Of a DNA stretch of 22,196 nucleotides, positions 1,598-17,265 are shown in pieces. This stretch comes from a virus: positions 160,918 through 183,113 of the IMG/VR virus record IMGVR_UViG_3300026549_000035, one strand, 5' to 3'. Below the pieces are notes generated by a model. It made no database searches. It was not told where the DNA came from and saw only the letters and a list, made by a program, of their open reading frames with translations. A program made the position numbers and the translations under genes. Numbering within the stretch: position 1 is the first letter of the stretch; each line of letters opens with the position of its first letter.

Positions 1598-1620
1598 AGC
1601 CTATACTTCCTTTTTTATTT

Positions 1621-1649
1621 TCTATATATATTATAATATATTTTTTATA
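1621..1649 (-). promoter_or_regulatory. Class I (early-type) promoter, copy 1: TTGATT-17-TATAAT inside a ~55-bp conserved AT box
   Basis: Minus strand reads TTGATT, then a 17-nt spacer, then TATAAT, about 25 nt before the RBS and ATG of 563..1597. The same box recurs 8 times in the window. Confidence 0.7.
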
Positions 1650-1777
1650 AAAAATCAAGTAAGGCTTTCTGCTGTATTTTCGTTTATTGTTTTTTGTTTT
1701 TCAGCATAAGACTATAATTGATTAATAAAATTAATTGTTGAATTACAAAAATTACAATTTGAAATGCCTTGACATTT

Positions 1778-2491
1778 CTATCCACAAGTCATTCGTCTAT
1801 GCGCAAAAAACTTTTTATCATCATTTTCATAAGGAATAACTTCAAATCCTCTATTATCTACATCTACTCCAAAATTAGTTAATAAAGTATTTAAATTACC
1901 TGGCCAATTTTTATCTTCAGCATAGATTCGATATAGAGCATATTCTTTTTTAATACTATCTTTTGAATCAAACTCGAAATGATCAATATAAGCACTATAA
2001 GTTTCAATGTCTTCTGGACGAATATATGTTCCACAAATTCCATTTTCACGAGGCATATATCCATTATAACATTTATTTACTACTGCGCGCAATTCAATAT
2101 CTGGACCACAGATATTTTTTACTTTTGATAAATCAAAGAAAATTGGAGCATCTAAAAGTATTTCATTAACGCCAAGCGCAATTAAACTTCGTAACTCCCA
2201 AAAAGTTGCAGCTGGATAAGACCAAAAAGCTTTATATCCTAAATCTTTGGCTGTTTCAATCATACGAGTATCTTCGACTGCAATAACAATATTTAAAATG
2301 TCTTTATATTTCTCTATTTGATCCCAATTAACAATTTGATCTTTTGGAAGATAAATAACTATCTCACCTTTGCAAGTCCAATCATCAGAAACAAAATCAG
2401 CCAATCTTTCAATATCATTATAATTTACTCGAATTTCTTCTGCTTTTTTTAAAACTGTTAAAGGCTATCTACTTGATAACATAAATTTCAA
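1778..2491 (-). CDS. hypothetical protein. The likely true start is TTG 2491..2489 with an AAAGGAGTG SD 7 nt upstream, and there is an in-frame TAG at 2467..2465. The track ORF 1778..2404 is the part after that TAG.
   Basis: The frame is open from TTG 2491 through the TAG to 1778. The track start TTG 2404 has no SD, whereas the 2491 start has a strong one. The terminal codon at 1780..1778 is also TAG and is followed by TAA 12 codons later. Confidence 0.5.
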
Positions 2492-2509
2492 AATAATCAC
2501 TCCTTTTTA

Positions 2510-2545
2510 TTATTATTATAACAAAAAAAAATAGTAAAAGCAACT
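2510..2545 (-). promoter_or_regulatory. Promoter for 1778..2491: TTGCTT-17-TATAAT
   Basis: Minus strand reads TTGCTT TTACTATTTTTTTTTGT TATAAT. A GC-rich perfect palindrome GCTCGCGCCGCGAGC (2576..2590) sits just upstream of the -35. Confidence 0.5.
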
Positions 2546-2605
2546 TTTATTTAAGTTTACGGTCTCTTGTGGTCGCTCGCGCCGCGAGCAGTTAAAAAGA
2601 TTATT

Positions 2606-2651
2606 ATAAAAAAGCCTCTGAAGAAAAACTTCAGAGGCTTTTATTTTTTTT
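2606..2651. terminator. Bidirectional rho-independent terminator
   Basis: GCCTCTGAAG, loop AAAAA, CTTCAGAGGC, with an A-run on one side and a T-run on the other. It sits directly after the stop of 2660..3058. Confidence 0.8.
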
Positions 2652-2659
2652 ACTAAGGA

Positions 2660-3058
2660 TTAACCAACAAGGCGGTAGCCGACTAAACGACGAGTCTTAT
2701 TATCTTCGCCCTTAATAGTAACTTCTCCCTTTTCAACACCAGAACCTTCAGTCTTATACAGAGCGTTCAATCTATAAGAAACTTTGGATAGGGTTACATC
2801 TTCGCCCTCAATTCGAGCCGCAATAGTAGCAATGCTCTCGAATTCATCAGTAAGAGCTTCCTTAACGGCTTCAGCAAGGGCATCTCCCTCAGCCTTCTTT
2901 GCAGCGGCAGCTTCCTTTGCTTTAGCAGCCTTACGGTCAAGCTGACCAATTTTCTTTTCAGCCCATTCCGCAATTACATCAGGATCAAGATCCTCAAGAG
3001 TTCCCTCTGCAATAGCGGCGTAAATCTTGCGGTCAGTAAGTTTTTCAGTGTTAGTCAT
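2660..3058 (-). CDS. Ala/Glu/Lys-rich acidic protein. It is compositionally GC-richer than its surroundings and is a paralog of 15697..16131.
   Basis: The ORF ends in TAA. ATG 3058 has an AAGGAG SD 10 nt upstream, and the track start TTG 3067 is too close to the SD. It shares the segment KAAKAKEAAAAKKAEGDALAEAVKEAL with KAAEAAKKAEAEAKAK of 15697..16131. It has its own class I promoter and strong terminator. Confidence 0.65.
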   Translation of the reverse strand: MTNTEKLTDRKIYAAIAEGTLEDLDPDVIAEWAEKKIGQLDRKAAKAKEAAAAKKAEGDALAEAVKEALTDEFESIATIAARIEGEDVTLSKVSYRLNALYKTEGSGVEKGEVTIKGEDNKTRRLVGYRLVG

Positions 3059-3129
3059 AATTTTCAATCTCCTTGATTAAAATATTTTTTATTATTTTTA
3101 TAAGATTTCTTTCTTTATCTTACATATAT

Positions 3130-3158
3130 ATTATATATTATTTTTTTTTAAAAATCAA
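3130..3158 (-). promoter_or_regulatory. Class I promoter, copy 2
   Basis: aatcaa at 3153..3158 and attata at 3130..3135 on the plus strand, which read TTGATT-17-TATAAT on the minus strand. Confidence 0.65.
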
Positions 3159-3168
3159 TAAAGATTTT

Positions 3169-4866
3169 TTATGAAAAATCATCTAAGTTTATTGTTCTAA
3201 GTGTTTTTTGAAAATTCTGGATAAATGATTCTTTAATTTTAAGAGGTTTGAAATCCTTAATTCGATGGAAAGGAACGATATATTCACTACACCACCAACT
3301 ATAATACGTATCGTGATAATAAGAAAGAATTTCATCTACACCCTTTTTAAAAACCTTAGAAGCACAGTTTTCACAAATTGTCTTAACAACAGGATTATCT
3401 GCTTCATTTTTTATGATTGGAGTTTGAGTAGAAATAACTTCGCCTTCATCATTCTTCTTATAAAGAGTTTCTCCAATAACAAATTTTATCGCTTCGACAT
3501 CACCCTCATCATCGCAATGGTTTAAGTCAATAATCCTACCACAGATATCACATTCGGGTAAATTTTCATAACAATATGAACAATATTCTCTATTATTAAA
3601 TATTACAAGTTCATTACTATTTGCGATAACGTCACTACAACTACAGCAAACATGATGCTCTACGCAATTAAAGCAAGCTAAATCTGAAGACTCCTCAAAA
3701 TCTTCTTCACCACCGCATATAACGCATTCGCTTACTCCAGAATAATCAAAAATAACATCTTCATCACAATTTTCAACGAGAATTGCTGAATATCTATTTC
3801 CACTATAAAAATCATTATACATAGCAGGACCGCAAGACATATTGATATTTAAATAAGAATTTACAGTTTCATCTTCAATGGTTTCTCCAACTCTCCATCT
3901 AGAAATTTTAGAAGAAAATTTTGTTTGATCAGTAGTAAATAACTCTGCGAGCCATTTTAAAGCTAAATCTTCGAGTTCAGAATTCCAGTAGGGGTATCCC
4001 TTGATACCAAAAACTCCATAATCATTTACAATCATGAACTCTCGCCACTTTTTAGAATTCCATCTTTCCCTAGGATGCTCAGGATCAACATAAAATTCCA
4101 TATGATTAGAATTTGATTCAAGATAAGCAACTATAACATAAGGAGAATTCATCATTTCAACTACTCCTCTACGATACTCGCCATCTATCCAATGCATACA
4201 TGAGTGCCAGTCATTTTCATTCCAACTTGCGGTCATATAATCAAGAGGGTGAATACTTAAACATAAATTTGCAGATAAAAAAGACTCGTTCATAATTTGA
4301 GATTGTTTAATACGAAAATCTTCAAACTGCTGTTCCAGACCTGCCGCTCTAGCAAGACGACCCATAGCTTTCATAATTTTACAGCCATGAACAAGCTTAA
4401 ATACTTTATTATCAGGCAGATTTAATGCTAAAGTTTCTCCCTGATATCTATTGGAAATTAATGGATCAATATCAAACATATAAAATCTTAACTCTGATTC
4501 AATAGAAGTCCATTCCCAACTATATTCTGAGGAGCTAGGCTGCCACTTAGCATAAATATCATTATTTTTTGCAAGCATATCAAGAATTCTCTCTCTTAAA
4601 TAGAGAATGGGGCTATAAGAAATGAATTTTTTCATTTTCTCATGGAGCTCTTCTTCGCTTACCTTAATTTCTACCTTCTTTTTAAGGATAAGTTGATTAC
4701 CGAAAACTTTAGACATTTTTAAAGCTTTAGCTTTTTCCCAATAAGTTAAAAAGGAATCACAACTTACGAAATCTTCATGCACAAAATCTCCTAAATCATC
4801 AGTGCCGTATTTACGAACGGCATTAATTAATGATTTTTCTTCGCTACTAAGTTGCTCAATAAACAT
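3169..4866 (-). CDS. large ORFan with an HPLDY...SC motif domain and a C-terminal multi-CxxC zinc-ribbon region
   Basis: 565 aa ending in TAA, with an AAGGAG SD upstream of ATG 4866. The tail has CVICGG, CFNC, CCSC, CSYC, CDICG and CENC. It is a paralog of the partial gene at 1..546. Confidence 0.7.
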   Translation of the reverse strand: MFIEQLSSEEKSLINAVRKYGTDDLGDFVHEDFVSCDSFLTYWEKAKALKMSKVFGNQLILKKKVEIKVSEEELHEKMKKFISYSPILYLRERILDMLAKNNDIYAKWQPSSSEYSWEWTSIESELRFYMFDIDPLISNRYQGETLALNLPDNKVFKLVHGCKIMKAMGRLARAAGLEQQFEDFRIKQSQIMNESFLSANLCLSIHPLDYMTASWNENDWHSCMHWIDGEYRRGVVEMMNSPYVIVAYLESNSNHMEFYVDPEHPRERWNSKKWREFMIVNDYGVFGIKGYPYWNSELEDLALKWLAELFTTDQTKFSSKISRWRVGETIEDETVNSYLNINMSCGPAMYNDFYSGNRYSAILVENCDEDVIFDYSGVSECVICGGEEDFEESSDLACFNCVEHHVCCSCSDVIANSNELVIFNNREYCSYCYENLPECDICGRIIDLNHCDDEGDVEAIKFVIGETLYKKNDEGEVISTQTPIIKNEADNPVVKTICENCASKVFKKGVDEILSYYHDTYYSWWCSEYIVPFHRIKDFKPLKIKESFIQNFQKTLRTINLDDFS

Positions 4867-4901
4867 ATAGTAATCTTTCTCCTTTTTTATTTTCTATATA
4901 T

Positions 4902-4930
4902 ATTATATAATATTTTTTTATAAAAATCAA
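4902..4930 (-). promoter_or_regulatory. Class I promoter, copy 3
   Basis: Minus strand reads TTGATT (4930..4925), a 17-nt spacer, then TATAAT (4907..4902). The box sequence is conserved. Confidence 0.7.
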
Positions 4931-4962
4931 TTAAGCCTCTTAGAAGCTATAAAATAAAACTT

Positions 4963-5505
4963 TTAGTTAATCATGAATAAGTATAAAAACATTTGACAAC
5001 GACCAGAAGTTTTATTGTTAAATACTATATCTGTCGCTTGTTCTTCTGTTATCCACATAGGGTATATATCTTCATCTTTAGTTGTATTTTTATTAGTTAT
5101 CTCACCTGCAGCAGTGCAAACGACTGTTGCAACAGCTTCATTAGACATTCCCGCAGACTGATAAGCAGGAGGTAAAATATCTAAAATATCTTGTATTTCT
5201 AATCCTGTCTCTTCAAACAGTTCTCTTTTTGCAGTAGTTATAATATCTTCGTTATGTTCACGTAATCCCGCAGGAAAAGCGTAAATATAATCATTAACAG
5301 GAACTCGCCACTCTTTAATAACAAGAACTTTCTTAAAATCAGGAGATAAGGCAATAATGTCTACAGCATCAGCTCCTACCTTATTTATATCTTTAAGTTT
5401 TTGACGAGAAGCTACTTCATAATTACGTCCACTTTCTAATTTAAAATTATAAAAATGTAAAAATTTTCCATCATAAACAGGAACAATTTCTTTTATTTTA
5501 TCCAT
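4963..5505 (-). CDS. Nudix hydrolase (ADP-ribose/NDP-sugar pyrophosphatase-like)
   Basis: The Nudix box GLREHNEDIITTAKRELFEETGL matches Gx5Ex7REUxEExGU. The ORF is 180 aa ending in TAA, with an AAGAGGT SD 8 nt before ATG 5505. Confidence 0.8.
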   Translation of the reverse strand: MDKIKEIVPVYDGKFLHFYNFKLESGRNYEVASRQKLKDINKVGADAVDIIALSPDFKKVLVIKEWRVPVNDYIYAFPAGLREHNEDIITTAKRELFEETGLEIQDILDILPPAYQSAGMSNEAVATVVCTAAGEITNKNTTKDEDIYPMWITEEQATDIVFNNKTSGRCQMFLYLFMIN

Positions 5506-5537
5506 TCTTTTTTACCTCTTTATCATTTTCTATATAT

Positions 5538-5566
5538 ATTATATCATAATTTTTTATAAAAATAAA
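5538..5566 (-). promoter_or_regulatory. Class I promoter variant, copy 4: TTTATT-17-TGATATAAT with an extended -10
   Basis: It shares the ttttctatatatattatatcataattttttataaaaat box. The -35 is degenerate but a TGn extended -10 is present. Confidence 0.5.
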
Positions 5567-5596
5567 AGGGAGAACTTTTTGTTCTCCCTTTTTATA
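5562..5596. terminator. Bidirectional rho-independent terminator
   Basis: AAAAGGGAGAAC, loop TTTTT, GTTCTCCCTTTTT. It lies directly downstream of the stop of 5611..6879. Confidence 0.8.
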
Positions 5597-5610
5597 TATT
5601 TATTAAAAAT

Positions 5611-6879
5611 TTAAGTAGTTACGGGGGTATCGGAAATCTTGTCGGTATTTAAATTTTTCCCAAAAAGTGGGGTCGCTGTCGTAGAATTCATCATTAAAAG
5701 AAAAGGGAGCATATCATTTGCCTTATCTCCCTTTTGGCTCAAAAGGAAATACATCATCATAGGATTAGAAGCAAAGTTATTATTGCCTCCCATAGAATTA
5801 AACAAAAGCAGAGTCATTGGATCAAAATCCTTATTATCATCTGCCAGCATCAAGAAAGGCAACATATTGCCGAAAGGATTATCAGGGTCAGCGGTCAAAC
5901 TACTAAAATCGACCAAGGCGCAAACCTTAGTGAAGAAGTTAAAACCAAAAGGACTCTTAACAGGCAGAATATCTACAACAGTAGAGTTTGCATAATTCAA
6001 AACAGAAATAGTTCCGTTAGAATTAATAGAACGGACAAAAACAGGCTGATTACCATGGATAAGAATATCACCAATAGCAATAGCATTTAATGCTACTGGC
6101 ATCTTATAAATGAGTTTAGAAATATCGAAGTTGATAATATCAACATTAAAAACTTCACCAGTCTTAGAGTTATATGATACCCAGCCATTAGCGTTAGTAG
6201 CAACTGCGATACCATAAGGACTCATACGGAACTGCTTATCAGAAACAGGACCAAAATCGAATTTAATCAAATCGTTAGTATTCATATCATCTTTCTCCTT
6301 ATCATTATTAGTTTTAGTTATATATCCATCAGTATCTAATTGATTAAGAATGTTGTTATACAATGTAGTAGTATTAGAATTATACCATTCTTGGATATAA
6401 TTATTTATTGAATTATCTATTGAAGTTGTTGCATAATTGCTTGAAGAAATAGGAGCGGTTCGATAAGTTATTGTGTCTTTAGCTGAATCTAAATTGCTAA
6501 TAAAATATCCACCTTGACTTACTTCAACTGTATTTGTTTCAAGATCAAAAGGAAGATAATCTTTCCAATAATTTATTAAAAAAGCTGCTAAAGAATTACT
6601 AGATGTTATACCGCATTTCCTTGAACAAGTATAAGAATATAAAGTTTCTCCAAGTGCTTTTTTCCAAGTATCATATTCTTTTATTTGAAGTTTTTCTAGA
6701 TTGTATTCCGGAAAAGAGTGGATAACAACAAAATTAGCTGATTCAGAAACTTTTAATTTTCTCCATTCTCCATAGCCAATGCGCGTATATCCTAAAGTTT
6801 CAGTAGCTTCTTGAAAATCTTTTAAAAGTTGTTTTGAACTAACAAGAATGGCTTCTTTATCTCTTTTTATAATTGCCAC
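5611..6879 (-). CDS. hypothetical protein, 422 aa, possibly structural
   Basis: Long ORF ending in TAA. It contains the internal repeat MLPFLMLADD / MLPFLLMMNS. No domain recognised. Confidence 0.65.
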   Translation of the reverse strand: MAIIKRDKEAILVSSKQLLKDFQEATETLGYTRIGYGEWRKLKVSESANFVVIHSFPEYNLEKLQIKEYDTWKKALGETLYSYTCSRKCGITSSNSLAAFLINYWKDYLPFDLETNTVEVSQGGYFISNLDSAKDTITYRTAPISSSNYATTSIDNSINNYIQEWYNSNTTTLYNNILNQLDTDGYITKTNNDKEKDDMNTNDLIKFDFGPVSDKQFRMSPYGIAVATNANGWVSYNSKTGEVFNVDIINFDISKLIYKMPVALNAIAIGDILIHGNQPVFVRSINSNGTISVLNYANSTVVDILPVKSPFGFNFFTKVCALVDFSSLTADPDNPFGNMLPFLMLADDNKDFDPMTLLLFNSMGGNNNFASNPMMMYFLLSQKGDKANDMLPFLLMMNSTTATPLFGKNLNTDKISDTPVTT

Positions 6880-6924
6880 TTATTTTCTCCTTTCTTTATT
6901 TTCTATATATATTATATCATAATT

Positions 6925-6962
6925 TTTTATAAAAATAAAGGAGAGAATTTTAAACTCTCCTT
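6925..6962 (-). terminator. Rho-independent terminator for 6961..7695
   Basis: GGAGAG, loop AATTTTAAA, CTCTCC. A T-rich tail follows on the minus strand. Confidence 0.6.
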
Positions 6963-7695
6963 ATTTCTTCTCTAAACAGCGCGTTAAAATAGTTTGTTTA
7001 ATACCTTTATATGTTTTATGATCTTTTACAGTTCCAGAAATGTGATGTTCAGTTCCTTCTTCCCAACTTTTTGCCGCAGTAGTCCAAACATAACAATTTC
7101 CATCATAATCTCTCATAATATGCATAGTATTGGGACCAAAATATCCATCAAGAGAAATAGCACTTTCTATCGTAAGAATAAGATCTAATCTATCTCCAAT
7201 CTTACCCTGATATTCACTGATATCAGGTTCATAGATTAATGATTCGACCGCCGCAAGAACAGAATCTTCATTTTTAAGAGTTCCATCTTCATTACCAACT
7301 AAGTTCCAAGGTAATCTAACTGGTTCTACATCTTCTGGAAGATCGTCGGGAATTACATCAGTAGAAATAAAATACCAACCCCACATTCGAGTATATCTGG
7401 CTTTAGATTCTTTAAAATATTCTTTATCTTCATAGGTGTTACCTTTGAAGATGGTGATGAATCCTTCATCACCGAAGCCCAAAACTTCCCTTTGCTGTTT
7501 AAGACGGATTATTTTATCCTCGGTCTCAATCTTTTCACCGGGATACATCTTTAAATATTCTTTTTCAGTATAAAAACGAACTTGTTTTAAAGTGCCACTT
7601 TTAGTGCGCACTTGAACATATTGTCTTCCGTTCTTAATATAAGGTTCTCCTACTTGTTCTAAATTTTGATATGATTTTGCTACCACAAATGGCAC
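6961..7695 (-). CDS. hypothetical protein, 244 aa
   Basis: ORF ending in TAA, tightly linked to 7711..8274 with a 15-nt gap. No domain recognised. Confidence 0.6.
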   Translation of the reverse strand: MPFVVAKSYQNLEQVGEPYIKNGRQYVQVRTKSGTLKQVRFYTEKEYLKMYPGEKIETEDKIIRLKQQREVLGFGDEGFITIFKGNTYEDKEYFKESKARYTRMWGWYFISTDVIPDDLPEDVEPVRLPWNLVGNEDGTLKNEDSVLAAVESLIYEPDISEYQGKIGDRLDLILTIESAISLDGYFGPNTMHIMRDYDGNCYVWTTAAKSWEEGTEHHISGTVKDHKTYKGIKQTILTRCLEKK

Positions 7696-7710
7696 TCCTT
7701 TCTTTATTGT

Positions 7711-8274
7711 TTAAAAAACTTTCCAAATATCAATGCAGTTTACATTCATTACTTCAATAGCTGCTTGATGATTTTCAGGCGATGTGCCAGCGCAAAGATT
7801 ATCATACACGATGATACGAGTATTAGGGCAAGCCGCACGCAAAATTAGCGCATTAGAAATGACGCAAATATCGGTACAAAGACCTACTATAATAATCTTA
7901 TTTACTTCGTCCCTTTTAACACTCTCAATTAAATATTTTGCAAGGTCAAAGCTACCAAAGGTTTTTTTAGTCCACCAAATTACTACGGTTCCTTGTCGCA
8001 ATTTTTCTACAAGAGCTCTTTCTATAGAACTCTCAATTTCAAAACCTTCTGTAGCAGGAACGCAATGAATAGGAATATTCTTTCCTTCGATACTTTTATG
8101 ATAATCCTCTTCAAAGTGTTGATCTTGAGTAGCAAAAATATAGTCACCTTCAAAGTTTTTAATATATTCACATACCAAAGGAACTATCGCTTCTGCTTCT
8201 GGCGAACCCAAAACGCCATCAATAAAATCATTTTGCATATCTACAACTACTAACGCTGTTTTATTTTTTTCCAT
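7711..8274 (-). CDS. nicotinamidase/pyrazinamidase (PncA-like), isochorismatase-family cysteine hydrolase
   Basis: ALVVVDMQNDF (the DxQxDF motif), IPIHCV (the PncA WPxHCV-like metal site), the catalytic-Cys context IIIVGLCTDICV, and a conserved K (KKTFGSFD). The ORF ends in TAA. Confidence 0.7.
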   Translation of the reverse strand: MEKNKTALVVVDMQNDFIDGVLGSPEAEAIVPLVCEYIKNFEGDYIFATQDQHFEEDYHKSIEGKNIPIHCVPATEGFEIESSIERALVEKLRQGTVVIWWTKKTFGSFDLAKYLIESVKRDEVNKIIIVGLCTDICVISNALILRAACPNTRIIVYDNLCAGTSPENHQAAIEVMNVNCIDIWKVF

Positions 8275-8302
8275 ATTTATCGCCTTTGCTCCTTTTTTTA
8301 TT

Positions 8303-8587
8303 TTAATTAATTACTTTTTTTTCAGAAAAAATAAGTCCAGATGGAAAAAACAAATCACTTAATTCATTTATAGTTAAATTTGAAATAGTATCTTTCCAAC
8401 AGTCACCATAAAAGCTTTTTAAAGTAGTCCATTCGCAATCATTTGTTTCTTCTTTAATGACGAGGATATCCATATTTGCAGACAAAACATCAAGTTCTAT
8501 TAAATAGGAAATAAGTGCTTTTATATCTGAAGCTACAAGGAGATCGCTCATATCTCCATCTTCATGATTAATACAATATACTTTCAT
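8303..8587 (-). CDS. hypothetical protein, 94 aa
   Basis: ORF ending in TAA, first gene after class I promoter copy 5. Confidence 0.55.
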   Translation of the reverse strand: MKVYCINHEDGDMSDLLVASDIKALISYLIELDVLSANMDILVIKEETNDCEWTTLKSFYGDCWKDTISNLTINELSDLFFPSGLIFSEKKVIN

Positions 8588-8622
8588 TCTTTAAAAACCT
8601 CTTTTTATTTTTTTCTATATAT

Positions 8623-8651
8623 ATTATAATATATATTTTTATAAAAATCAA
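8623..8651 (-). promoter_or_regulatory. Class I promoter, copy 5
   Basis: Minus strand reads TTGATT (8651..8646), a 17-nt spacer, then TATAAT (8628..8623). Confidence 0.7.
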
Positions 8652-8678
8652 TTGAAGATTATAATTCTTCCTTTAAGA

Positions 8679-8707
8679 TTGCATATTATAAAAATAATTG
8701 CTATAAT
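8679..8707 (+). promoter_or_regulatory. Plus-strand promoter for the FNT-like gene: TTGCAT-17-TATAAT, divergent from class I copy 5
   Basis: gattgcatattataaaaataattgctataata, followed by an AAGGAGGTG SD. Confidence 0.55.
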
Positions 8708-8741
8708 AATATTAGAAGATTTTTTAAGGAGGTGAAACTTA

Positions 8742-9338
8742 ATGAGTGTATTAGCTGGAATTATGATAGGAATTGGCTGTATGTTGTATTTATAGATTGG
8801 CGGAATCCCAGGAGCTTGTTTATTTTCAGTTGGATTAATGTCAGTTTGTTTATTCAATATGAAATTATTTACGGGTCAGGCGGGAAAACTTGCAACATTA
8901 GAAATAAAACCCTTAAGCCTTTTAAAAATTTGGATTGGAAATTTTATAGGAATTTTTCTTGTTGCGCTAGTAGCCTTGGTGCATCCAAATTATGAAACTA
9001 TGGCGGAAGCCGCAAGAAATATAATGGCTTCTCGAGAAGCTGCAGGCTTTTTTTATTCTTTCGTATTAGGAATCCCTTGCGGTTTATTAATGTATTGTGC
9101 AGTCACCGCAAGAGGTCCGATGCGATTATTTTATATTATGATTTGCGTAGCAGCTTTTATTTTAGGCGGATTTTACCATTGTATTGCTGATTTATTTTAT
9201 ACTTGGTTAGGTGCTGGAAATATGCAATAGTTATGTAATGTTTTATTCGTAACTCTTGGAAATCTTGTAGGATGCAATCTTATCCCTTTAATAAAAATTA
9301 TTCCAAATAAAATTAAGAGGCTCAAAAAGAAAAAATGA
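8742..9338 (+). CDS. FNT-family-like membrane channel homolog, about 198 codons, with two in-frame TAG codons at 8793..8795 and 9228..9230
   Basis: ATG 8742 sits 7 nt after a perfect AAGGAGGTG SD. The frame is open to TGA 9336..9338 except for the two TAG codons. FNT-like segments lie on both sides of each TAG: FSVGLMSVCLFNMKLFTG (compare FocA FSLGLILCVVCGADLFTS), CVAAFILGGFYHCIADLF (compare GFEHSIANMF), and after the second TAG NVLFVTLGNLVGC (compare the FocA C-terminal VTLGNIIGG). Confidence 0.6.
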
Positions 9339-9344
9339 GCCTCT
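9315..9344. terminator. Hairpin between the convergent genes; a weak or bidirectional terminator
   Basis: AAGAGGCTC, a 12-nt A-rich loop, GAGCCTCTT. Confidence 0.4.
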
Positions 9345-9383
9345 TAACACTTGACGATTTGTAACGAAAAATATCGAGAATCG

Positions 9384-9662
9384 TCACGGATTATTTTGAT
9401 AAAATTCTTGTTCGATACGGGTATTTTCTTGTAAAATTCGAGCGTTTATACAATTCTGACAGTAGATATGCACAGTATCATCTTTGACTTCGATTATAGG
9501 AACCAATACCCCATTGCCGCATTTTTCGCAAACAGATATTTCTGTTACACATTTAGAGCAATAGTCTTCTGGATTAATTTTTCCCTGCATTGCAGGAATC
9601 ATAATCTAACAAGTTTTATTTTGAGGTAAATATAATTTGCATTTAGCGCATCGATAAAACAT
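9384..9662 (-). CDS. double zinc-ribbon protein, 92 codons. The true start is ATG 9662 and there is an in-frame TAG at 9608..9606. The track ORF 9384..9602 is only the part after the TAG.
   Basis: Minus strand reads TAAGGGGGTAAAAG ATG TTT TAT CGA TGC GCT AAA TGC ... TGT TAG ATT ATG ATT. The AAGGGGGT SD is 5 nt before the ATG. The N-terminal extension supplies a CAKC pair that complements CSKC, CEKC and CQNC. The track start at 9602 has no SD. Confidence 0.65.
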
Positions 9663-9673
9663 CTTTTACCCCC

Positions 9674-10186
9674 TTATTCAAGATTGACTGAAAATGAATA
9701 ATCTATACTTCCTTCTGGGATATGAATTTCTTGTTCTTGTCTATCTGTAATAAAAAAGAAATTAATAATAGGGTTAGAATTTCTCATTTGCTTTGTTTCG
9801 ATGTAAGCAGTTTCTTTCTTTTCGTCATCATAAAGAGTTGTTTTTTCTGCTTTTACACTATAAAAATCTTTTCCTCCGTCTTTATTTTCAGTAAAATAGT
9901 AATAATATAAATCTGAATCTATATATCCACTACCAATAAAGAAATATCCTGTTGAAAGATTATTATTATCTTTTAAAGCAACAATAGATTCTTTTTTAGT
10001 ATCATAAACTTCATCGGCTTCAAATTCTTGACCTATTAAAAAGGAACCCATTAATATAAAGAGAGTTACTGCAATTGATATTAGGACTCCTGTAAAAATA
10101 TCAGAAGCATATCCTAAATCAGCAAAAATTGCGTAAAGAATACTGCCAATAATAATTAAGATACCTATAATAAAAGCAAACCACAT
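9674..10186 (-). CDS. membrane protein with 2 N-terminal TM helices and an extracytoplasmic domain; tandem paralog of 10201..10719
   Basis: Hydrophobic N-terminus MWFAFIIGILIIIGSILYAIF...VLISIAVTLFILMGSFLIG. Ends in TAA. Confidence 0.6.
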   Translation of the reverse strand: MWFAFIIGILIIIGSILYAIFADLGYASDIFTGVLISIAVTLFILMGSFLIGQEFEADEVYDTKKESIVALKDNNNLSTGYFFIGSGYIDSDLYYYYFTENKDGGKDFYSVKAEKTTLYDDEKKETAYIETKQMRNSNPIINFFFITDRQEQEIHIPEGSIDYSFSVNLE

Positions 10187-10200
10187 AATAAAACCTCCTT

Positions 10201-10719
10201 TTATTCTCCTGTTATTGTTATTCCATATTTTACACTATCTTTTGGAATATAAAAATCATATTTAGTATGTCTAGGTATCCACATTGCAAAGAAATTTTTT
10301 TCTGCTACAAAAACTGTTTCTGTCATATAAGGAGTTTCATCTGTTTCATAAAAATTTACATCAGAACCAATTCCTATGGAAGTAAGATTTTGACCAGAAG
10401 AACTTTTTATATCTTTTTTATTATACCAATAACACTTGTTTGTTTTGTTTTGACCAGCACCTACATAGGCTATTTCATCAGGAGTTGAAATTGAAAAAGG
10501 TAAAAGCTCTACTTCTTCAGTCTTTTCAATTTTCATATTTTCAATTGAATAATGTGTGTCAATTGATGCAGAAATAATTACTCCCATTATTAATAATAAA
10601 CATATAAGACCAAATCCTATAACAATAAGAGAAAGAGCATCTTCATCTTCTTTTGCAAGGAAAAAATAATAAATTATAGTAAGAATAAAGATTATTCCTA
10701 TTAAGATCCACCAGAACAT
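10201..10719 (-). CDS. membrane protein with 2 N-terminal TM helices and a domain; same architecture as 9674..10186
   Basis: MFWWILIGIIFILTIIYYFFL...LIVIGFGLICLLLIMGVIIS. An AAAGGAGG SD is 9 nt upstream. Ends in TAA. Confidence 0.6.
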   Translation of the reverse strand: MFWWILIGIIFILTIIYYFFLAKEDEDALSLIVIGFGLICLLLIMGVIISASIDTHYSIENMKIEKTEEVELLPFSISTPDEIAYVGAGQNKTNKCYWYNKKDIKSSSGQNLTSIGIGSDVNFYETDETPYMTETVFVAEKNFFAMWIPRHTKYDFYIPKDSVKYGITITGE

Positions 10720-10940
10720 TTTTCTTCCTCCTTTAAAATAAGATCTTCTTTTTCAAGACAAGGACCGCCCTCGCCAAGAACACTAAGATTGAGAATTCTA
10801 GTCATTTCAGTATCTCCATACATTTCAACGAGATGCGTCATAACGTCAAGCCAAGATGCGCCATAGGTTATACCTTCCGCAATTATAGGTCCGTCTGTAT
10901 CTGCGTAATATTCTATTTTATAAAAATAAAAAAAGTTCAT
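10701..10940 (-). CDS. hypothetical acidic protein, 79 aa; overlaps the next gene start by 19 nt
   Basis: ORF ending in TAA. Sits in the operon downstream of 11133..11531. Confidence 0.5.
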   Translation of the reverse strand: MNFFYFYKIEYYADTDGPIIAEGITYGASWLDVMTHLVEMYGDTEMTRILNLSVLGEGGPCLEKEDLILKEEEKCSGGS

Positions 10941-10957
10941 ATTATTCTCCTTTGTAA

Positions 10958-11128
10958 TTATTTAATTAAGCAGGTGATAAGACCGCTTAAAATTAAAAAT
11001 GCAAAAATTAAAAAAAGAAAAGTAATAATCCAAAGTACCCAATCTTTTCCCATTACTGCAAGCTCTCCAATAAAATAGGCTGCGACAAAAGAAACAATCA
11101 TTAAAATAGATAAAAAAATTATTAACAT
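10958..11128 (-). CDS. small hydrophobic protein with 2 TM helices, about 56 aa, from ATG 11128
   Basis: MLIIFLSILMIVSFVAAYFIGELAVMGKDWVLWIITFLFLIFAFLILSGLITCLIK. The track start at 11182 would overlap the upstream gene by 50 nt. ATG 11128 lies 4 nt after the upstream TAA and has a weak GAGGT SD. Confidence 0.45.
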   Translation of the reverse strand: MLIIFLSILMIVSFVAAYFIGELAVMGKDWVLWIITFLFLIFAFLILSGLITCLIK

Positions 11129-11132
11129 TATT

Positions 11133-11531
11133 TTAACGTACCTCGAGATTCTTAATGGTATTTTCAAGGGTATTGAGTTCATTTTTTAGCTTTGTTATTT
11201 TTTTAGTAATAGAAATCCAAAGCTCTTTTTTAGAATCGTAATACCAATATCCAATTTCTTTTGGAGTACTACAATTAGAAAGATATCCCATTTCGTCTGC
11301 AAGTTTTATAGCTGCTTCATTACCTACAAAAAGATAATAACAATCTAATAAACCTTGAGTAGCTTTTCCTTCAAAAAGAGTCTCGTCTCCAATGATATTA
11401 TAAGCAAAATCATAAAAGCGCAATTGACCTTTTGCAGCTTCGCGTTTTTTAATATCTTCATATTGAACGCAATCATCATAATCGTCAAAAACAGTGCCAT
11501 CGTCTGCCATATAAGTGATTAACTCTTTCAT
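11133..11531 (-). CDS. hypothetical protein, 132 aa
   Basis: ORF ending in TAA. The C-terminus is coiled-coil-like (KKITKLKNELNTLENTIKNLE). Confidence 0.55.
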   Translation of the reverse strand: MKELITYMADDGTVFDDYDDCVQYEDIKKREAAKGQLRFYDFAYNIIGDETLFEGKATQGLLDCYYLFVGNEAAIKLADEMGYLSNCSTPKEIGYWYYDSKKELWISITKKITKLKNELNTLENTIKNLEVR

Positions 11532-11537
11532 TACTAT

Positions 11538-11912
11538 TTATCTCCTTTTTATAGTAGTTAGTGTTCCGTTAAAAATTTCTCTTTTTGATTCGACAACTTT
11601 ATATGCATCATCATCATCATCAAGTAAATCGTAAATTTCTTCCCACAAATAATTAATAAGAGTAGTTGAAGTGTTAAATAAAGTATTGGTTATGATAATA
11701 TTGTTTAAGTTGTTTTTTGCAAAGTAAAGAACATTTTTATTGACTGCCGCAACAATAGTTTCTTCGTTGATTAATTCTGACCATGGGATATCAGTATTTT
11801 TTTGCATATAGGTTTTAGATTGGTCATTAGGAAAATGTTGTAAGATATATTGTATATCTATTTGATTTTCAATCACTTGTGTTTGCGTTTGGCGCAATTT
11901 AATATATATCAT
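11538..11912 (-). CDS. hypothetical protein, 124 aa
   Basis: ORF ending in TAA. RBS AAAAAAAGGA upstream. Confidence 0.55.
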   Translation of the reverse strand: MIYIKLRQTQTQVIENQIDIQYILQHFPNDQSKTYMQKNTDIPWSELINEETIVAAVNKNVLYFAKNNLNNIIITNTLFNTSTTLINYLWEEIYDLLDDDDDAYKVVESKREIFNGTLTTIKRR

Positions 11913-11921: not shown

Positions 11922-12272
11922 TTATCCTTTTTTTTGACAAAGTTCAAAATATGTATCTCCAATTTTTTGTGGTGTTGATTTATACTGACAGTTATGTTCA
12001 TAATCAAGGCAAATATAAGCATTTTTATTATTAGAGCCTTTTATAATACCACATTCCATACAAGTAGACTTTTTATCCTAGTTATCCCAAGAAGAAGTCC
12101 ATTCTTCAACAAGTTCTTTTAAAAGTTCTTGTTCTAATTCAGTTAAACAATAAAAGGGAACCTGTGCCCAAACTTCCTTGTTTTTATTTTCAGATACATT
12201 TTTTTCTATACTATAACAATCATAATTATCATTAAATAAGAGTCTATATTGACCTAAAGTAATAACTTTCAT
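11922..12272 (-). CDS. hypothetical protein. The 64-aa ORF ends at TAG 12080..12078, and the frame stays open for 51 more Cys-containing codons to TAA 11924..11922.
   Basis: The extension reads IKKSTCMECGIIKGSNNKNAYICLDYEHNCQYKSTPQKIGDTYFELCQKKG, which is protein-like and fills the whole intergenic gap up to the next gene's RBS. An alternative is a separate mini-ORF from ATG 12059 with a poor RBS. Confidence 0.45.
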
Positions 12273-13567: not shown

Positions 13568-13747
13568 ATGCCAATTAACAAAATAATTTATTCAAAAAGA
13601 GTAATGGAGTCTTTAGTTGCTATGGGTAATATACCTCTTAAATCTATGCCTAATCCTTATAAGCCAGAGTTTTAGTGTTGGATTTTTGAAGTTAATGAAA
13701 AATTTTAGAAAGATATAGATAAAATATTAGGTGATAAATATGGTTGA
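13568..13747 (+). CDS. small protein. ATG 13568 sits after a TAAGGAGG SD, 35 codons run to TAG 13673..13675, the frame continues through a second TAG at 13706..13708 to TGA 13745..13747, and it overlaps the next start.
   Basis: MPINKIIYSKRVMESLVAMGNIPLKSMPNPYKPEF then TAG, CWIFEVNEKF then TAG, KDIDKILGDKYG then stop. The read-through text is protein-like and ends in an ATGnnTGA-style overlap with the downstream gene. Confidence 0.4.
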
Positions 13748-14111
13748 GCGCACTTTTATATTTTATCCTGATTGGCTTAATTTTATTGAACGTATTAGTA
13801 ATGAAAAAGATAAATTAGATTTATATGATATTATTGCTTCTTATGGGTGTCATGGAGAATATTCAAATAAAAATCCTATGATGACTGCTGTTTTTGAATC
13901 TTTAATTAAACCTAAAATAGATATTGCGCAAGGTCGTTATGAAGAAAAAATTACTATGGGAAAGAATTATGGACGTAAAAAAATAGTAGATGATAATATG
14001 GTCAAGTAGTTGGCGCAAGAAGGCATGCGCGCAAAAGATATTGCTGAGAAATTAAACGTGTCGGTTGATACGGTTTATCATAGTGATGGATGGAAAAATA
14101 GAAATTTGTAA
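13740..14111 (+). CDS. two-domain DNA-binding protein. An 89-aa N-terminal domain ends at an in-frame TAG (14007..14009) and is followed by a 33-codon sigma70-region-4-like HTH. It is possibly an ArpU/RinA-like regulator or an initiator-like protein.
   Basis: ATG 13740 sits after a TAGGTGAT SD. The frame after the TAG is contiguous and reads LAQEGMRAKDIAEKLNVSVDTVYHSDGWKNRNL, a classic HTH. The internal ATG 14025 is only 1 nt after its AAGAAGG and cannot initiate well. Confidence 0.5.
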
Positions 14112-14371: not shown

Positions 14372-14617
14372 ATGAATGATAATATTTTTTCAACAGAAAA
14401 AAATCGTGAAATAAGTGAGCTTCAAGAAAGAATAAAAAGAGATTGGATTTTAAGAGAAACAGACGAAGAAGATGAATATGAGTTAGAAATAGATGAAGAA
14501 GATTTAGAAAATGTTATAGAAGATATTCTTGAAAGACGAGAGAGAAAAAATAGAGAACTCTTAAAAGAGATAGTAGATTTATTAGAAGATATAAAGATAT
14601 ATCTGAGAAGATTATAG
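14372..14617 (+). CDS. highly acidic coiled-coil-like protein, 81 aa. It ends at TAG and is followed 2 codons later by TAA.
   Basis: SD AAAGGAGAAATG. The translation is Glu/Asp-rich: ...EEDEYELEIDEEDLENVIEDILERRERKNRELL. Confidence 0.5.
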   Translation: MNDNIFSTEKNREISELQERIKRDWILRETDEEDEYELEIDEEDLENVIEDILERRERKNRELLKEIVDLLEDIKIYLRRL

Positions 14618-14640
14618 TTTAAATAAAAGGAGGAATTTTT

Positions 14641-14886
14641 ATGGCAGGAATCCCATCAAAAATTGAACCTACTATGAAAGGGAAAAAGTTACCTTTAATA
14701 TAGAGAGTAAAATATCATGAATTAGATAGTTTTCTTAATAGAAAAGATATTGTTAGAGGAGAACTATTTATAGATGAGAACACTGGGGATTTATATGTAG
14801 CAGAAAAAGGCGATGTAGAAACTTATTGGTTAAGATTAGGTAGAACAGATTTAGAAAAAGAAGAACTGGAACAAAACAAAAATCCA
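14641..14886 (+). CDS. hypothetical protein, 81 codons, with an in-frame TAG at 14701..14703. The 61 codons downstream have no ATG, GTG or TTG.
   Basis: AAGGAGG SD 8 nt before ATG 14641. The translation is MAGIPSKIEPTMKGKKLPLI then TAG, then RVKYHELDSFLNRKDIVRGELFIDENTGDLYVAEKGDVETYWLRLGRTDLEKEELEQNKNPFLN then TGA. Confidence 0.5.
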
Positions 14887-15013
14887 TTTTTAAATTGAAA
14901 TTAAAATAAAAATGTGATATTATATAAATAATAAAAAAGGGCTTTTATAAAAATGAATTGAAAATTCATTTTTATAAAAGAAAAATGAAATGAAAAATGA
15001 GGAAGGTAGAAAT

Positions 15014-16199: not shown

Positions 16200-16705
16200 A
16201 GGCTCGTAAAGCCACGAAAATTTTTCTGTGGAAAGAAATTCATGAGAACTTCCTTTTGGATAGCTGGGCTGATAAAAATCAGCCTTTGTAAATACGCCAT
16301 AGCAAAGATGAGAACTATGCGTTTTTCCCCGAACGGACATCCGAACGGGAATGGACAGGAACGAAAGAGCTGCGGAAAATTTTTGGTTTTTTTTAATATT
16401 ATACCAAAAAATTTTTTGAAAGTCAAACAAGTAATTATAAAAACAAACACCGAGCGGGGCCGGCAAGTAACTTTCAAATGAGATAAAAGCCATATGGGGC
16501 AAACACCGAACGGGGGCCCGCCCGGGGGGGCAGAGTGGTAAAAAAAAATTTCCCATTTCGGGAAAATGAGATGCCATATGGGGGGCCGCACTTGCCCTCG
16601 AAAAATTTGCATATGGGGTTAGGTGCGGGAATTCGGGCGACGTCTATTGTCGTCGGCCCGATGATTTTATCGCTTTAAGCCACTAAAGTGCCCGGGCGCA
16701 AACCC
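16200..16705. other. GC-rich non-coding island with reiterated CACCGAACGGGG and CATATGGGG motifs and several hairpins. The overlapping track ORFs here are judged spurious.
   Basis: caccgagcgggg at 16448, caccgaacgggg at 16504, ccccgaacgg and ccgaacggg near 16326..16347. catatgggg appears three times near 16491, 16575 and 16610. A bulged hairpin GGGCGACG...CGTCGGCCC is also present. Confidence 0.6.
16538..16568 (-). terminator. Rho-independent terminator for the minus-strand class II unit arrays
   Basis: Minus strand reads ATTTTCCCGAAATGGGAAAT followed by TTTTTTTTT. Confidence 0.7.
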
Positions 16706-16707
16706 TA

Positions 16708-16926: not shown

Positions 16927-16956
16927 CTTTATTATCTCCTTTTCTTTGATGTATTT

Positions 16957-16985: not shown

Positions 16986-16991
16986 GAGTTT

Positions 16992-17174: not shown

Positions 17175-17203
17175 TTTTATCTCTCCCTTTTTTTGATATA
17201 TTT

Positions 17204-17252: not shown

Positions 17253-17265
17253 CCAGCCCGGGTGC

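What the first reader, a model, noticed from the sequence alone, without database searches (positions are those of the whole stretch)
8742..9338. FNT-like channel gene spans two in-frame TAG codons with family-conserved segments on both sides
From ATG 8742, which has a perfect AAGGAGGTG SD, the frame reads MSVLAGIMIGIGCMLYL then TAG then IGGIPGACLFSVGLMSVCLFNMKLFTGQAG...GGFYHCIADLFYTWLGAGNMQ then TAG then LCNVLFVTLGNLVGCNLIPLIKIIPNKIKRLKKKK then TGA. The segments resemble FocA/NirC motifs (FSLGLILCVVCGADLFTS, GFEHSIANMF and the C-terminal VTLGNIIGG). Only TAG read-through yields a full six-TM-like FNT-sized protein; each fragment alone is a meaningless truncation. A phage-borne FNT channel is also an unusual cargo.
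Basis: partly seen in the sequence, partly recalled or inferred. Interest (0 to 1): 0.8.

Follow-up and report, generated by a model that had tools for sequence, protein, structure and literature searches.

The report
Phage formate-channel gene read through TAG
A large uncultured gut phage that reads the stop codon TAG as glutamine, using its own suppressor tRNA, carries an intact, minimal formate/nitrite-family channel gene; the recoding is a known phenomenon, but this channel is a recurrent phage cargo I found no report of, and in many relatives it sits directly beside a formate-consuming ribonucleotide reductase.

Summary
ATG 8742 to TGA 9338 is one 198-codon frame with in-frame TAGs at 8793-8795 and 9228-9230. 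It matches Pfam PF01226 on both sides of the TAGs and models confidently as a complete FNT protomer.

It is not a pseudogene: dN/dS against a 94%-identical relative is 0.075, including the segments after each TAG. The TAGs are sense codons. Relatives interchange TAG with CAA/CAG at the same positions, and none of 70 called genes in this phage and a relative ends in TAG. Other window genes also carry in-frame TAGs, and the same ~177-183-kb genome encodes a tRNA with anticodon CUA about 29 kb away. This is the known TAG-to-Gln ("code 15") recoding of gut phages.

TAGs concentrate on the FNT's strand (11 of 12 genes versus 10 of 58), which suggests translation gated by the suppressor.

The short FNT occurs on at least 50 viral contigs. 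In 25 of them it directly follows nrdD-nrdG, a formate-dependent class III ribonucleotide reductase, whereas 0 of 80 bacterial loci show this. That suggests formate supply for phage dNTP synthesis. The window's own clade lacks the adjacency in the ~52 kb I could read, so function remains inferred.

Verdict: a new member of a known kind, of moderate interest.

The parts
8726..8734 (+). Shine-Dalgarno AAGGAGGTG, 7 nt upstream of the ATG
   Evidence: Read directly from the sequence.
8638..8665 (+). Sigma-70-like promoter candidate (TTTATA-16-TATAAT) in the divergent intergenic region upstream of the FNT gene
   Evidence: Weak: the number of such sites does not exceed shuffled AT-rich controls.
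8742..9338 (+). Short FNT (formate/nitrite transporter family) channel gene, 198 codons, with TAG read as Gln
   Evidence: Pfam PF01226 at 82 bits over residues 2-179. AF2 model of the 95%-identical P0001 has pLDDT 96.8. TM-score 0.83 to HSC and 0.80-0.82 to FocA. dN/dS 0.075 against L001.
8793..8795 (+). In-frame TAG, codon 18 (in TM1)
   Evidence: TAG is also present here in L001, L003 and L057, and CAA in L002.
9228..9230 (+). In-frame TAG, codon 163 (loop before TM6)
   Evidence: CAA at the aligned codon in L001 and L002, and TAG in L055.
9315..9345 (.). Perfect 10-bp inverted repeat (AAGAGGCTCA / TGAGCCTCTT, 11-nt loop) overlapping the FNT stop codon. It is followed by a T-rich run on the minus strand, so it is a likely terminator between the convergent FNT and 9384-9662 genes.
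   Evidence: RNAfold -16.8 and -19.0 kcal/mol on the two strands. Terminator function is inferred.
9384..9662 (-). Convergent 92-aa Cys-rich gene with an in-frame TAG at codon 19 (9606-9608)
   Evidence: Database gene call on L053. The L002 ortholog has Gln opposite the TAG.
1655..2482 (-). 275-aa gene with three in-frame TAGs (2465-2467, 1778-1780, 1712-1714)
   Evidence: Orthologs are present in L055-L057.
11922..12272 (-). 116-aa gene with an in-frame TAG (12078-12080) that joins two standard-code ORFs
13568..13747 (+). 59-aa plus-strand gene with two in-frame TAGs, both conserved as TAG in L002
13740..14111 (+). DUF6291 + HTH (resolvase/sigma-70 region 4-like) DNA-binding protein with an in-frame TAG (14007-14009)
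   Evidence: Pfam. L002 has Gln opposite the TAG.
14372..14898 (+). Two further plus-strand genes (14372-14626 and 14641-14898), each with one in-frame TAG

Best explanation
The window is part of a ~177-183-kb uncultured tailed-phage genome, probably of a low-GC Gram-positive gut anaerobe. In this genome TAG is a sense codon, most likely Gln.

The phage encodes its own tRNA with anticodon CUA at the far end of an array of at least 34 tRNAs. Once that tRNA is made, ribosomes read through TAG18 and TAG163 and produce a full-length 198-aa channel of the formate/nitrite transporter family.

In-frame TAGs are concentrated in the transcription units on the FNT's strand. FNT synthesis is therefore probably withheld until the suppressor is present (inferred).

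The protein is a minimal FNT protomer. It has all six TM helices, the Omega-loop Thr44 and the central His146, but it lacks the N-terminal cytoplasmic helix.

The most likely job (inferred, about 0.4) is formate/formic-acid passage across the host membrane in support of phage nucleotide metabolism, specifically as reductant for a class III (NrdD) ribonucleotide reductase. Confidence in the recoding part is about 0.9. The number given below is for the recoded, intact, expressed FNT channel as a whole.
For: SHOWN - frame and family:
- The frame and the TAG positions are as described.
- PF01226 matches across both TAGs.
- The AF2 model has pLDDT 96.8 and pTM 0.90. Foldseek gives TM-score 0.83 to C. 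difficile HSC, 0.80-0.82 to E. coli FocA and 0.78 to NirC.
- L42, T44, F139, H146 and R127 align with HSC L82, T84, F194, H201 and K148.

SHOWN - selection:
- dN/dS is 0.075 overall, 0.079 for codons 19-162 and 0.061 for codons 164-198.

SHOWN - recoding:
- TAG and CAA/CAG interchange among the window, L001 and L002.
- In 47 ortholog pairs, 11 of the 39 non-TAG partners of TAG are CAA/CAG, against a 2.2% Gln background.
- 0 of 70 called genes end in TAG.
- The database's own gene calls translate TAG as Q ('translates_to_query: no').
- A tRNA(CUA) lies at L142 10656-10730, on the same contig as the window.
- tRNA(CUA) also lies 3-4 kb from TAG-bearing FNT genes in L034, L036, L037, L042 and L052.
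- Strand bias: 11 of 12 genes versus 10 of 58, Fisher p = 1.7e-6.

SUPPORTING THE FUNCTION:
- In 25 of 50 viral loci a NrdG-like activase gene ends just before the FNT start, with nrdD upstream in most. This includes lineages whose NrdG-like proteins are only 33-49% identical to the query activase. It is seen in 0 of 80 bacterial loci.
- The linked NrdD is closest to the formate-requiring P. copri enzyme and keeps its Asn in place of the third Cys (PMC11226230).
- Formate is the class III RNR reductant (PMC5704485, PMC4493059).
- The window region also holds NUDIX, NT5C-like and HD-domain genes.
Against: - No peptide evidence shows what is inserted at TAG. The suppressor tRNA is not a recognisable copy of the phage's tRNA-Gln(UUG), so Gln rests on codon comparisons.
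- No nrdD or nrdG lies within the ~52 kb of this genome that I could read, nor within the 20-kb loci of the syntenic relatives L055-L059.
- In the window's clade the FNT is a lone, oppositely oriented, TAG-rich gene. In the NrdDG-linked phages the module is TAG-poor. The two groups may therefore use the channel differently.
- FNT substrate (formate, nitrite, HS-, lactate) cannot be read from sequence.
- Pentamer assembly without the N-terminal helix is untested.
- The promoter and terminator calls are weak.
Confidence: 0.8

Rival explanations
1. The gene is a decaying pseudogene: an acquired bacterial FNT that picked up two CAG-to-TAG nonsense mutations and is no longer translated in full.
For: Each TAG is one transition away from CAG. 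Most neighbouring minus-strand genes read cleanly in the standard code.
Against: dN/dS is 0.075, with equally strong constraint downstream of each TAG. There are no frameshifts and no TAA or TGA. Relatives at 40-95% identity all keep the full frame with TAGs at different Gln positions. Other genes in the genome have TAGs, none terminates in TAG, and a tRNA(CUA) is present.
Confidence: 0.02
2. TAG is a sense codon but encodes something other than Gln, for example pyrrolysine (ARAGORN labels every CUA tRNA 'Pyl'), or Trp, Tyr, Leu or Ser.
For: The suppressor tRNA is not closely similar to the phage tRNA-Gln(UUG); its best matches are other suppressors, Arg(UCU) and Glu tRNAs. In L025 a TAG aligns with Trp in the close relative L020.
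Against: CAA/CAG are by far the commonest non-TAG partners of TAG: 28% against a 2.2% background. The others are polar Gln-like substitutes (N, E, D, S), with no Trp and only one Tyr. The tRNA is a normal 75-nt cloverleaf-sized molecule with U33-CUA-A37, and no pyl genes were seen in about 52 kb. TAG-to-Gln has been confirmed by metaproteomics in other gut phages (PMC9523058).
Confidence: 0.06
3. The FNT is not a metabolic helper. It acts late on the membrane: a weak-acid/proton pathway that dissipates the pH gradient or membrane potential to time lysis, block superinfection or shut down the host. TAG gating prevents premature expression.
For: In this clade the gene is TAG-rich, at 2-5 TAGs per ~195 codons, like the suppressor-dependent genes. 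It is a lone gene on the TAG-rich strand. Borges et al. found strongly recoded membrane proteins in lysis cassettes and proposed membrane depolarisation. The missing N-terminal helix might leave the channel ungated.
Against: No endolysin, holin or spanin was recognised next to it. The pore residues of a selective FNT are strictly conserved. Half of the viral homologs sit in a TAG-poor nrdD-nrdG operon, which points to metabolism.
Confidence: 0.15
4. It is a generic host-derived anion channel for another FNT substrate (nitrite, hydrosulfide, lactate or other short-chain acids), used to detoxify or re-route host fermentation and unconnected to ribonucleotide reduction.
For: The best structural match is the HSC hydrosulfide channel. 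Bacterial members of the same short family have no conserved neighbour and no NrdDG link. No NrdDG was found near the window's gene.
Against: The phage-specific, repeated and immediate nrdG-FNT juxtaposition (25 of 50 versus 0 of 80) is hard to explain without a formate link. The Foldseek differences among HSC, FocA and NirC are small (TM-score 0.78-0.83).
Confidence: 0.25

Closest known systems
[quoted passage not shown]
   Same: In-frame TAG occurs in only a subset of genes: 21 of the 70 counted in this genome, against 26-71% reported per clade. TAG is never a terminator. The phage encodes a tRNA(CUA). The host is presumed to use the standard code. The genome of ~180 kb falls in the Jade/Sapphire size range.
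   Different: I could not place this phage in any named clade, and it has no relative in INPHARED. Here the TAG-rich genes I could see are defined by strand or transcription unit and include a metabolic-type channel and an HTH regulator, rather than recognisable structural or lysis genes. No release-factor or aminoacyl-tRNA-synthetase 'code-change module' was seen in the ~52 kb available.
FNT channels FocA (E. coli, V. cholerae), HSC/FNT3 (C. difficile) and NirC (Salmonella), Pfam PF01226
   Same: Same aquaporin-like six-TM fold (TM-score 0.78-0.83). The Omega-loop Thr, the central His, the constriction Leu and Phe, and a basic vestibule residue are all kept.
   Different: It is about 60-80 residues shorter. 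It lacks the N-terminal cytoplasmic helix, which in FocA is implicated in gating and PflB interaction (my knowledge; not tested here), and it has shortened loops. It reads GFYHC instead of GFEHS around the His. It is only 20-26% identical and scores far below the NCBIfam equivalog cut-offs for FocA or NirC (48 versus 290 bits), so it is a separate subfamily of unknown substrate.
Short (about 190-210 aa) FNT family of gut and rumen anaerobes (Lachnospiraceae, Clostridia, Bacteroidales, Fibrobacter, Lentisphaerae)
   Same: Same length, motifs and predicted fold. It is the likely source of the phage genes.
   Different: At best 42% identical to the window protein. The bacterial genes are stand-alone and read in the standard code, and 0 of 80 lie near nrdD or nrdG.
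Phage class III ribonucleotide reductase modules (T4 nrdD-nrdG)
   Same: Half of the viral FNT homologs lie in an nrdD-nrdG(-dUTPase) nucleotide-metabolism module, and the enzyme type uses formate as reductant.
   Different: I found no report of T4-type modules with a formate channel. The window's own FNT is not adjacent to nrdD-nrdG.

Membership tests
Formate/nitrite transporter family (Pfam PF01226, TCDB 1.A.16) | Profile match above the curated family threshold | tested here: met
   82.1 bits against a gathering score of 34.6, covering residues 2-179.
Formate/nitrite transporter family (Pfam PF01226, TCDB 1.A.16) | Six-TM aquaporin-like protomer fold with broken TM2 (Omega loop) and TM5 (S loop) | tested here: met
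   AF2 pLDDT 96.8 and pTM 0.90 (modelled on the 95%-identical P0001). Foldseek TM-score 0.83 to 3te2 and 0.80 to 9g49.
Formate/nitrite transporter family (Pfam PF01226, TCDB 1.A.16) | Conserved pore Thr (FocA T91 / HSC T84) and central His (FocA H209 / HSC H201) | tested here: met
   T44 and H146 align to HSC T84 and H201 and are invariant in 112 family members.
Formate/nitrite transporter family (Pfam PF01226, TCDB 1.A.16) | N-terminal cytoplasmic helix preceding TM1 | tested here: not met
   The match starts at profile position 25 and at HSC residue ~32. The model starts directly with TM1. This defines a short subfamily and does not exclude membership of the superfamily.
Formate/nitrite transporter family (Pfam PF01226, TCDB 1.A.16) | Homopentamer and anion/weak-acid transport | not testable with these tools
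   Needs multimer modelling or biochemistry and transport assays.
FocA or NirC equivalogs (NCBIfam TIGR04060, NF008595) | Score above the equivalog cut-off | tested here: not met
   47.8 against 290.1 bits for FocA, and 16.8 against 293 bits for NirC. It should not be named FocA or NirC.
TAG-to-Gln recoded (code 15) phages | In-frame TAG in conserved genes that are under selection | tested here: met
   FNT dN/dS 0.075. At least 9 genes in the window and 16 of 46 database-called genes on the contig carry TAG.
TAG-to-Gln recoded (code 15) phages | TAG not used as a terminator | tested here: met
   0 of 70 called genes end in TAG.
TAG-to-Gln recoded (code 15) phages | TAG aligns with Gln codons in homologs | tested here: met
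   28% CAA/CAG against a 2.2% background.
TAG-to-Gln recoded (code 15) phages | Suppressor tRNA(CUA) encoded by the phage | tested here: met
   L142 10656-10730, on the same contig as the window.
TAG-to-Gln recoded (code 15) phages | Gln actually inserted at TAG (proteomics) | not testable with these tools
   Shown for other phages only (PMC9523058).
Phage nrdD-nrdG-FNT module (proposed here) | FNT gene immediately downstream of the NrdG activase, with NrdD upstream | tested here: not met
   Met in 25 of 50 viral loci. Not met in the window, in L053/L140/L142, or in L055-L059.

The most novel reading that the evidence does not exclude
Gut and rumen phages have repeatedly captured a minimal, N-terminally truncated FNT channel from their anaerobic hosts. 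They use it as an auxiliary metabolic gene that supplies formate, the stoichiometric reductant of class III ribonucleotide reductase, for phage DNA synthesis.

In many lineages the gene is fused into an nrdD-nrdG-FNT operon. In the window's lineage the same channel has moved to its own transcription unit and is translationally gated by TAG codons and the phage's suppressor tRNA.

By my rough arithmetic, about 100 progeny genomes of 180 kb need about 3.6e7 dNTPs. That corresponds to roughly 60 mM formate equivalents in a 1-fL cell, so formate supply could plausibly limit such phages.
Probability: 0.35. Interest if true: 0.62.

Novelty: new member of a known kind. Interest (0 to 1): 0.42.

Why it matters
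For annotation: this region is mis-called under the standard code, giving a 17-aa, a 144-aa and a 35-aa fragment instead of one channel. Several neighbouring genes are affected in the same way. It is a clean, checkable example of why gut-phage contigs need code-aware gene calling.

For biology: stop-codon recoding in phages is established, so the TAGs themselves are not new. Two things may be worth following up.

1. A membrane channel of a metabolic family belongs to the suppressor-dependent gene class. This extends the idea of 'recoding as a timer' beyond structural and lysis genes.
2. The phage-specific nrdD-nrdG-FNT arrangement suggests that reductant supply (formate) for anaerobic dNTP synthesis is something phages manipulate. 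I found no description of this in the searchable literature. If true, it adds a new type of auxiliary metabolic gene in anaerobic ecosystems, and it offers a naturally minimal FNT for studying gating without the N-terminal helix.

Tried and rejected
- NAD-salvage idea (FNT working with the neighbouring isochorismatase and NUDIX genes). Rejected, because these neighbours are absent from the syntenic relatives L055-L059.
- Megablast of the whole window against 50,697 phage records found nothing. Protein searches with the 565-aa and PD-(D/E)XK proteins gave only remote Enterococcus and T5-like hits.
- Search for nrdD and nrdG in the window, L053, L055-L059, L003-L006 and L009 found nothing.
- Bacterial gene neighbourhoods of the short FNT show no conserved partner, only scattered PurF and CarB. 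They give no substrate clue.
- Look-ups of two proteins at the window's right end failed because no exact product is on record. I got round this through cluster members, which allowed the walk to the suppressor tRNA.
- I compared the suppressor tRNA with the phage's other tRNAs to assign its amino acid. This was uninformative: 61-69% identity to many, and no close match to tRNA-Gln.
- The family-wide tally of residues at TAG columns gave only a diluted signal (Q 6.9% against 1.6%), because distant members differ and database proteins already carry TAG-derived Q. I replaced it with the codon-level ortholog test.
- The promoter scan is not above shuffled background in this AT-rich DNA.
- Rfam found no known RNA in the window.

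Full report
**1. The observation**

The frame is exactly as described.
- AAGGAGGTG lies at 8726-8734, followed by a 7-nt spacer and the ATG at 8742.
- TAG is at codon 18 (8793-8795) and codon 163 (9228-9230). The TGA stop is at 9336-9338.
- Under the standard code the region falls into a 17-aa piece, a 144-aa piece and a 35-aa piece. The ORF listing sees only a 130-aa ORF at 8838-9230.
- With TAG read through, the 198-aa product matches Pfam PF01226 (Form_Nir_trans) at 82.1 bits (E = 5e-23, cut-off 34.6). The match covers residues 2-179, so it runs across both TAGs.
- NCBIfam gives only sub-threshold hits to FocA, the fnt subfamily and NirC. PDB sequence search finds the C. difficile HSC, V. 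cholerae FocA and NirC.

**2. It is an intact gene, not a pseudogene**

A search of the 5.8-billion-protein collection found a family of short (about 190-210 aa) FNT proteins. P0001 is 95% identical to the window's product and P0002 is 67% identical. Both have Gln at the window's TAG positions.

The DNA behind those database proteins is decisive.
- L001, which is 93.6% identical in DNA, has TAG at codons 18 and 46 and CAA at codon 163.
- The window has TAG at 18, CAG at 46 and TAG at 163.
- L002 has CAA at its equivalent of codon 18, and TAGs at codons 40, 47 and 86.

TAG and CAA/CAG therefore replace one another freely at the same sites. The database's gene caller had already translated TAG as Q ('translates_to_query: no').

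A Nei-Gojobori comparison of the window with L001 gives dN/dS = 0.075 overall. It is 0.079 for codons 19-162 and 0.061 for codons 164-198. Purifying selection therefore acts on the parts that would not be made if TAG terminated translation.

**3. The recoding is genome-wide and the machinery is on the same genome**

Window bases 1-11597 are 100% identical to part of a 177,555-bp ENA contig. The window's arithmetic runs past that contig's end, and an exact protein match also lies on a 183,113-bp contig. I walked along the contig through cluster members and read about 30 kb beyond the window's left end.

- That stretch holds an array of at least 34 tRNAs. At its far end is a tRNA with anticodon CUA (L142 10656-10730, contig position ~140.85-140.92 kb), about 29 kb from the FNT gene.
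- The tRNA has a normal U33-CUA-A37 loop, a U1·C72 mismatch and G73. It is not a recent copy of the phage's tRNA-Gln(UUG).
- Of 70 called genes on this genome and its relative L002, none ends in TAG.
- In-frame TAGs occur in 16 of 46 database-called genes on this contig.
- In 47 orthologous pairs between this genome and L001, L002 and L055-L057, the non-TAG partners of TAG are CAA/CAG in 11 of 39 cases (28%), against a 2.2% Gln background. The remainder are mainly N, E, D and S, with no Trp and only one Tyr.

This matches the TAG-to-Gln recoding described for gut phages (Borges et al.) and validated by metaproteomics (PMC9523058). Pyrrolysine, which is ARAGORN's default label for CUA tRNAs, is not supported.

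**4. Distribution of TAGs**

TAGs are not spread evenly. Eleven of 12 genes on the FNT's strand carry them, against 10 of 58 on the other strand (Fisher p = 1.7e-6).
- On this strand in the window, the TAG-bearing genes are the FNT, 13568-13747, 13740-14111, 14372-14626 and 14641-14898.
- In the extended region, six further genes share this orientation and all six carry TAGs.
- L002 shows the same pattern: 4 of 6 against 0 of 18.
- One TAG-bearing plus-strand gene encodes a DUF6291/HTH protein.

The tRNA array, including the suppressor, is co-oriented with the TAG-poor genes. The natural reading follows Borges et al.: TAG-poor genes are translated with host machinery, and the opposite-strand units, including the FNT, need the suppressor first. 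That timing is inferred, not shown.

**5. The protein**

An AlphaFold2 model of P0001, built with a 112-sequence alignment, has pLDDT 96.8 and pTM 0.90. Foldseek places it with HSC (TM-score 0.83), FocA (0.80-0.82), NirC (0.78) and PfFNT.

From the HSC alignment:
- L42, T44, F139 and H146 correspond to HSC L82, T84, F194 and H201.
- R127 corresponds to K148.
- L42, T44, F139 and H146 are invariant in the family.
- The roughly 30-residue N-terminal helix of canonical FNTs is absent and the loops are shorter.

It is thus a genuine but minimal FNT. It should not be named FocA or NirC, because both equivalog thresholds fail.

**6. Phage cargo and context**

- Among 50,697 deposited phage records only three weak hits exist, but 50 IMG/VR contigs carry a relative. 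Many of those contigs are 60-280 kb, and several of their FNT genes have in-frame TAGs.
- Some have a tRNA(CUA) 3-4 kb from the FNT gene.
- The same short family occurs in at least 523 bacterial species of gut and rumen anaerobes. The best bacterial match is 42% identical.

The striking result is the neighbourhood.
- In 25 of 50 viral loci a NrdG-type radical-SAM activase gene ends within about 5-50 nt of the FNT start, and NrdD (PF13597 plus ATP-cone) lies upstream in most of them. A dUTPase is often nearby.
- This includes lineages whose NrdG-like proteins are only 33-49% identical to the query activase.
- None of the 80 bacterial loci has nrdD or nrdG within 8 kb, and the bacterial genes have no conserved neighbour at all.
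- The linked NrdD is closest to the P. copri enzyme (PDB 8P23). That enzyme requires formate and has Asn435 where thioredoxin-type enzymes have a third Cys (PMC11226230). The phage protein shows the same RGN motif.
- Formate is the established reductant of most class III RNRs (PMC5704485, PMC4493059).
- In these phages the nrdD-nrdG-FNT module is TAG-poor and borders TAG-rich genes.

I found no paper describing a phage FNT or this module. That covers only the held library.

**7. What this means for the window's gene**

The window's clade (the window itself, L001, L002 and L055-L059) keeps the FNT in a fixed syntenic slot. It is a lone plus-strand gene between minus-strand blocks, with a tRNA array to the left. 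Each of these FNT genes carries 2-5 TAGs.

No nrdD or nrdG lies in the parts I could read. The window does hold NUDIX, NT5C-like and HD-domain genes, which gives the region a nucleotide-metabolism flavour.

I therefore rate 'formate channel serving phage nucleotide reduction' as the best single functional hypothesis, at about 0.4. The rivals are another FNT substrate (about 0.25) and a late membrane or lysis-timing role (about 0.15).

**8. Verdict**

The mechanism is suppressor-tRNA-mediated TAG-to-Gln recoding in a large gut phage, which is already known, so the TAGs themselves are ordinary for this kind of genome.

The added value has three parts. First, a well-documented case that includes the suppressor on the same contig. 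Second, a strand- or unit-specific TAG distribution that includes a channel gene. Third, a recurrent phage-specific nrdD-nrdG-FNT module that suggests a testable new auxiliary metabolic function.

Noticed in passing
L140 16047-16635 (+) and L140 12098-12208 (+); same contig as the window, about 15-20 kb left of window base 1: A full-length ROOL RNA (RF03087, 332 bits) and a skipping-rope RNA (RF02924, 43.8 bits) are embedded in the phage's tRNA array.
   Followed up: no
L053 13282-20755, L140 2503-20092 and L142 9880-11710: An array of at least 34 tRNA genes, interspersed with small ORFs and two PD-(D/E)XK (PF11645) genes. The PD-(D/E)XK family is 76-96% conserved on hundreds of metagenome contigs up to 209 kb, which points to a widespread, abundant phage group.
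   Followed up: partly
window 22087-22151 (and 22168-22182): A 65-nt uninterrupted poly-T tract, plus a further 15-nt run, just upstream of the minus-strand gene 21795-22070. It could be a real homopolymer or an assembly artefact near a contig end.
   Followed up: no
window about 16917-16997, 17163-17253, 17829-17972, 18585-18674, 20348-20407 and 21457-21531: Repeated intergenic elements of about 80 nt between small minus-strand genes, also present in L002. They are probably reiterated promoters or terminators of an early-gene cluster.
   Followed up: no
L025 FNT gene (about 10001-10540) versus L020: A TAG in L025 (LGC#LYV) aligns with TGG/Trp in the closely related L020 (LGCWLYV), not with Gln. 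It may be a true W/Q difference, a sequencing error, or a sign that TAG is read differently there.
   Followed up: no
L011 6281-8107 and equivalents in L008-L049: The NrdD ORFs next to the FNT stop at about 600 aa, whereas the P. copri NrdD chain is 743 aa. About 470 nt remain before nrdG. The C-terminal glycyl-radical domain may lie in a separate ORF or frame, or behind an intron as in T4 nrdD.
   Followed up: no
window 4963-5505 (-), 7711-8274 (-), 19897-20337 (-) and 20823-21434 (-): NUDIX hydrolase, isochorismatase-family hydrolase, NT5C-like 5'(3')-deoxyribonucleotidase and HD-domain phosphohydrolase: a cluster of nucleotide- and cofactor-metabolism genes. NUDIX and isochorismatase are not conserved in the syntenic relatives.
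   Followed up: partly
window 13740-14111 (+): A DUF6291 + HTH (resolvase/sigma-70 region 4-like) protein carrying an in-frame TAG, conserved in L002 and L057-L059. It is a candidate suppressor-gated transcription regulator.
   Followed up: no
window 16676-22196 relative to contig k141_7166: By coordinate arithmetic the window runs about 5.5 kb past the end of the 177,555-bp ENA contig. An exact protein match is also recorded on a 183,113-bp contig (JGI/Logan/ENA), which is probably the window's true source or a more complete assembly.
   Followed up: partly
L012 10540-11571 and L018 13441-14187: Genes directly downstream of the nrdD-nrdG-FNT module in the related phages contain 7-9 in-frame stop codons under table 11, consistent with the TAG-rich downstream regions. 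This marks a sharp boundary between the TAG-poor module and these stop-rich genes right after the FNT.
   Followed up: partly
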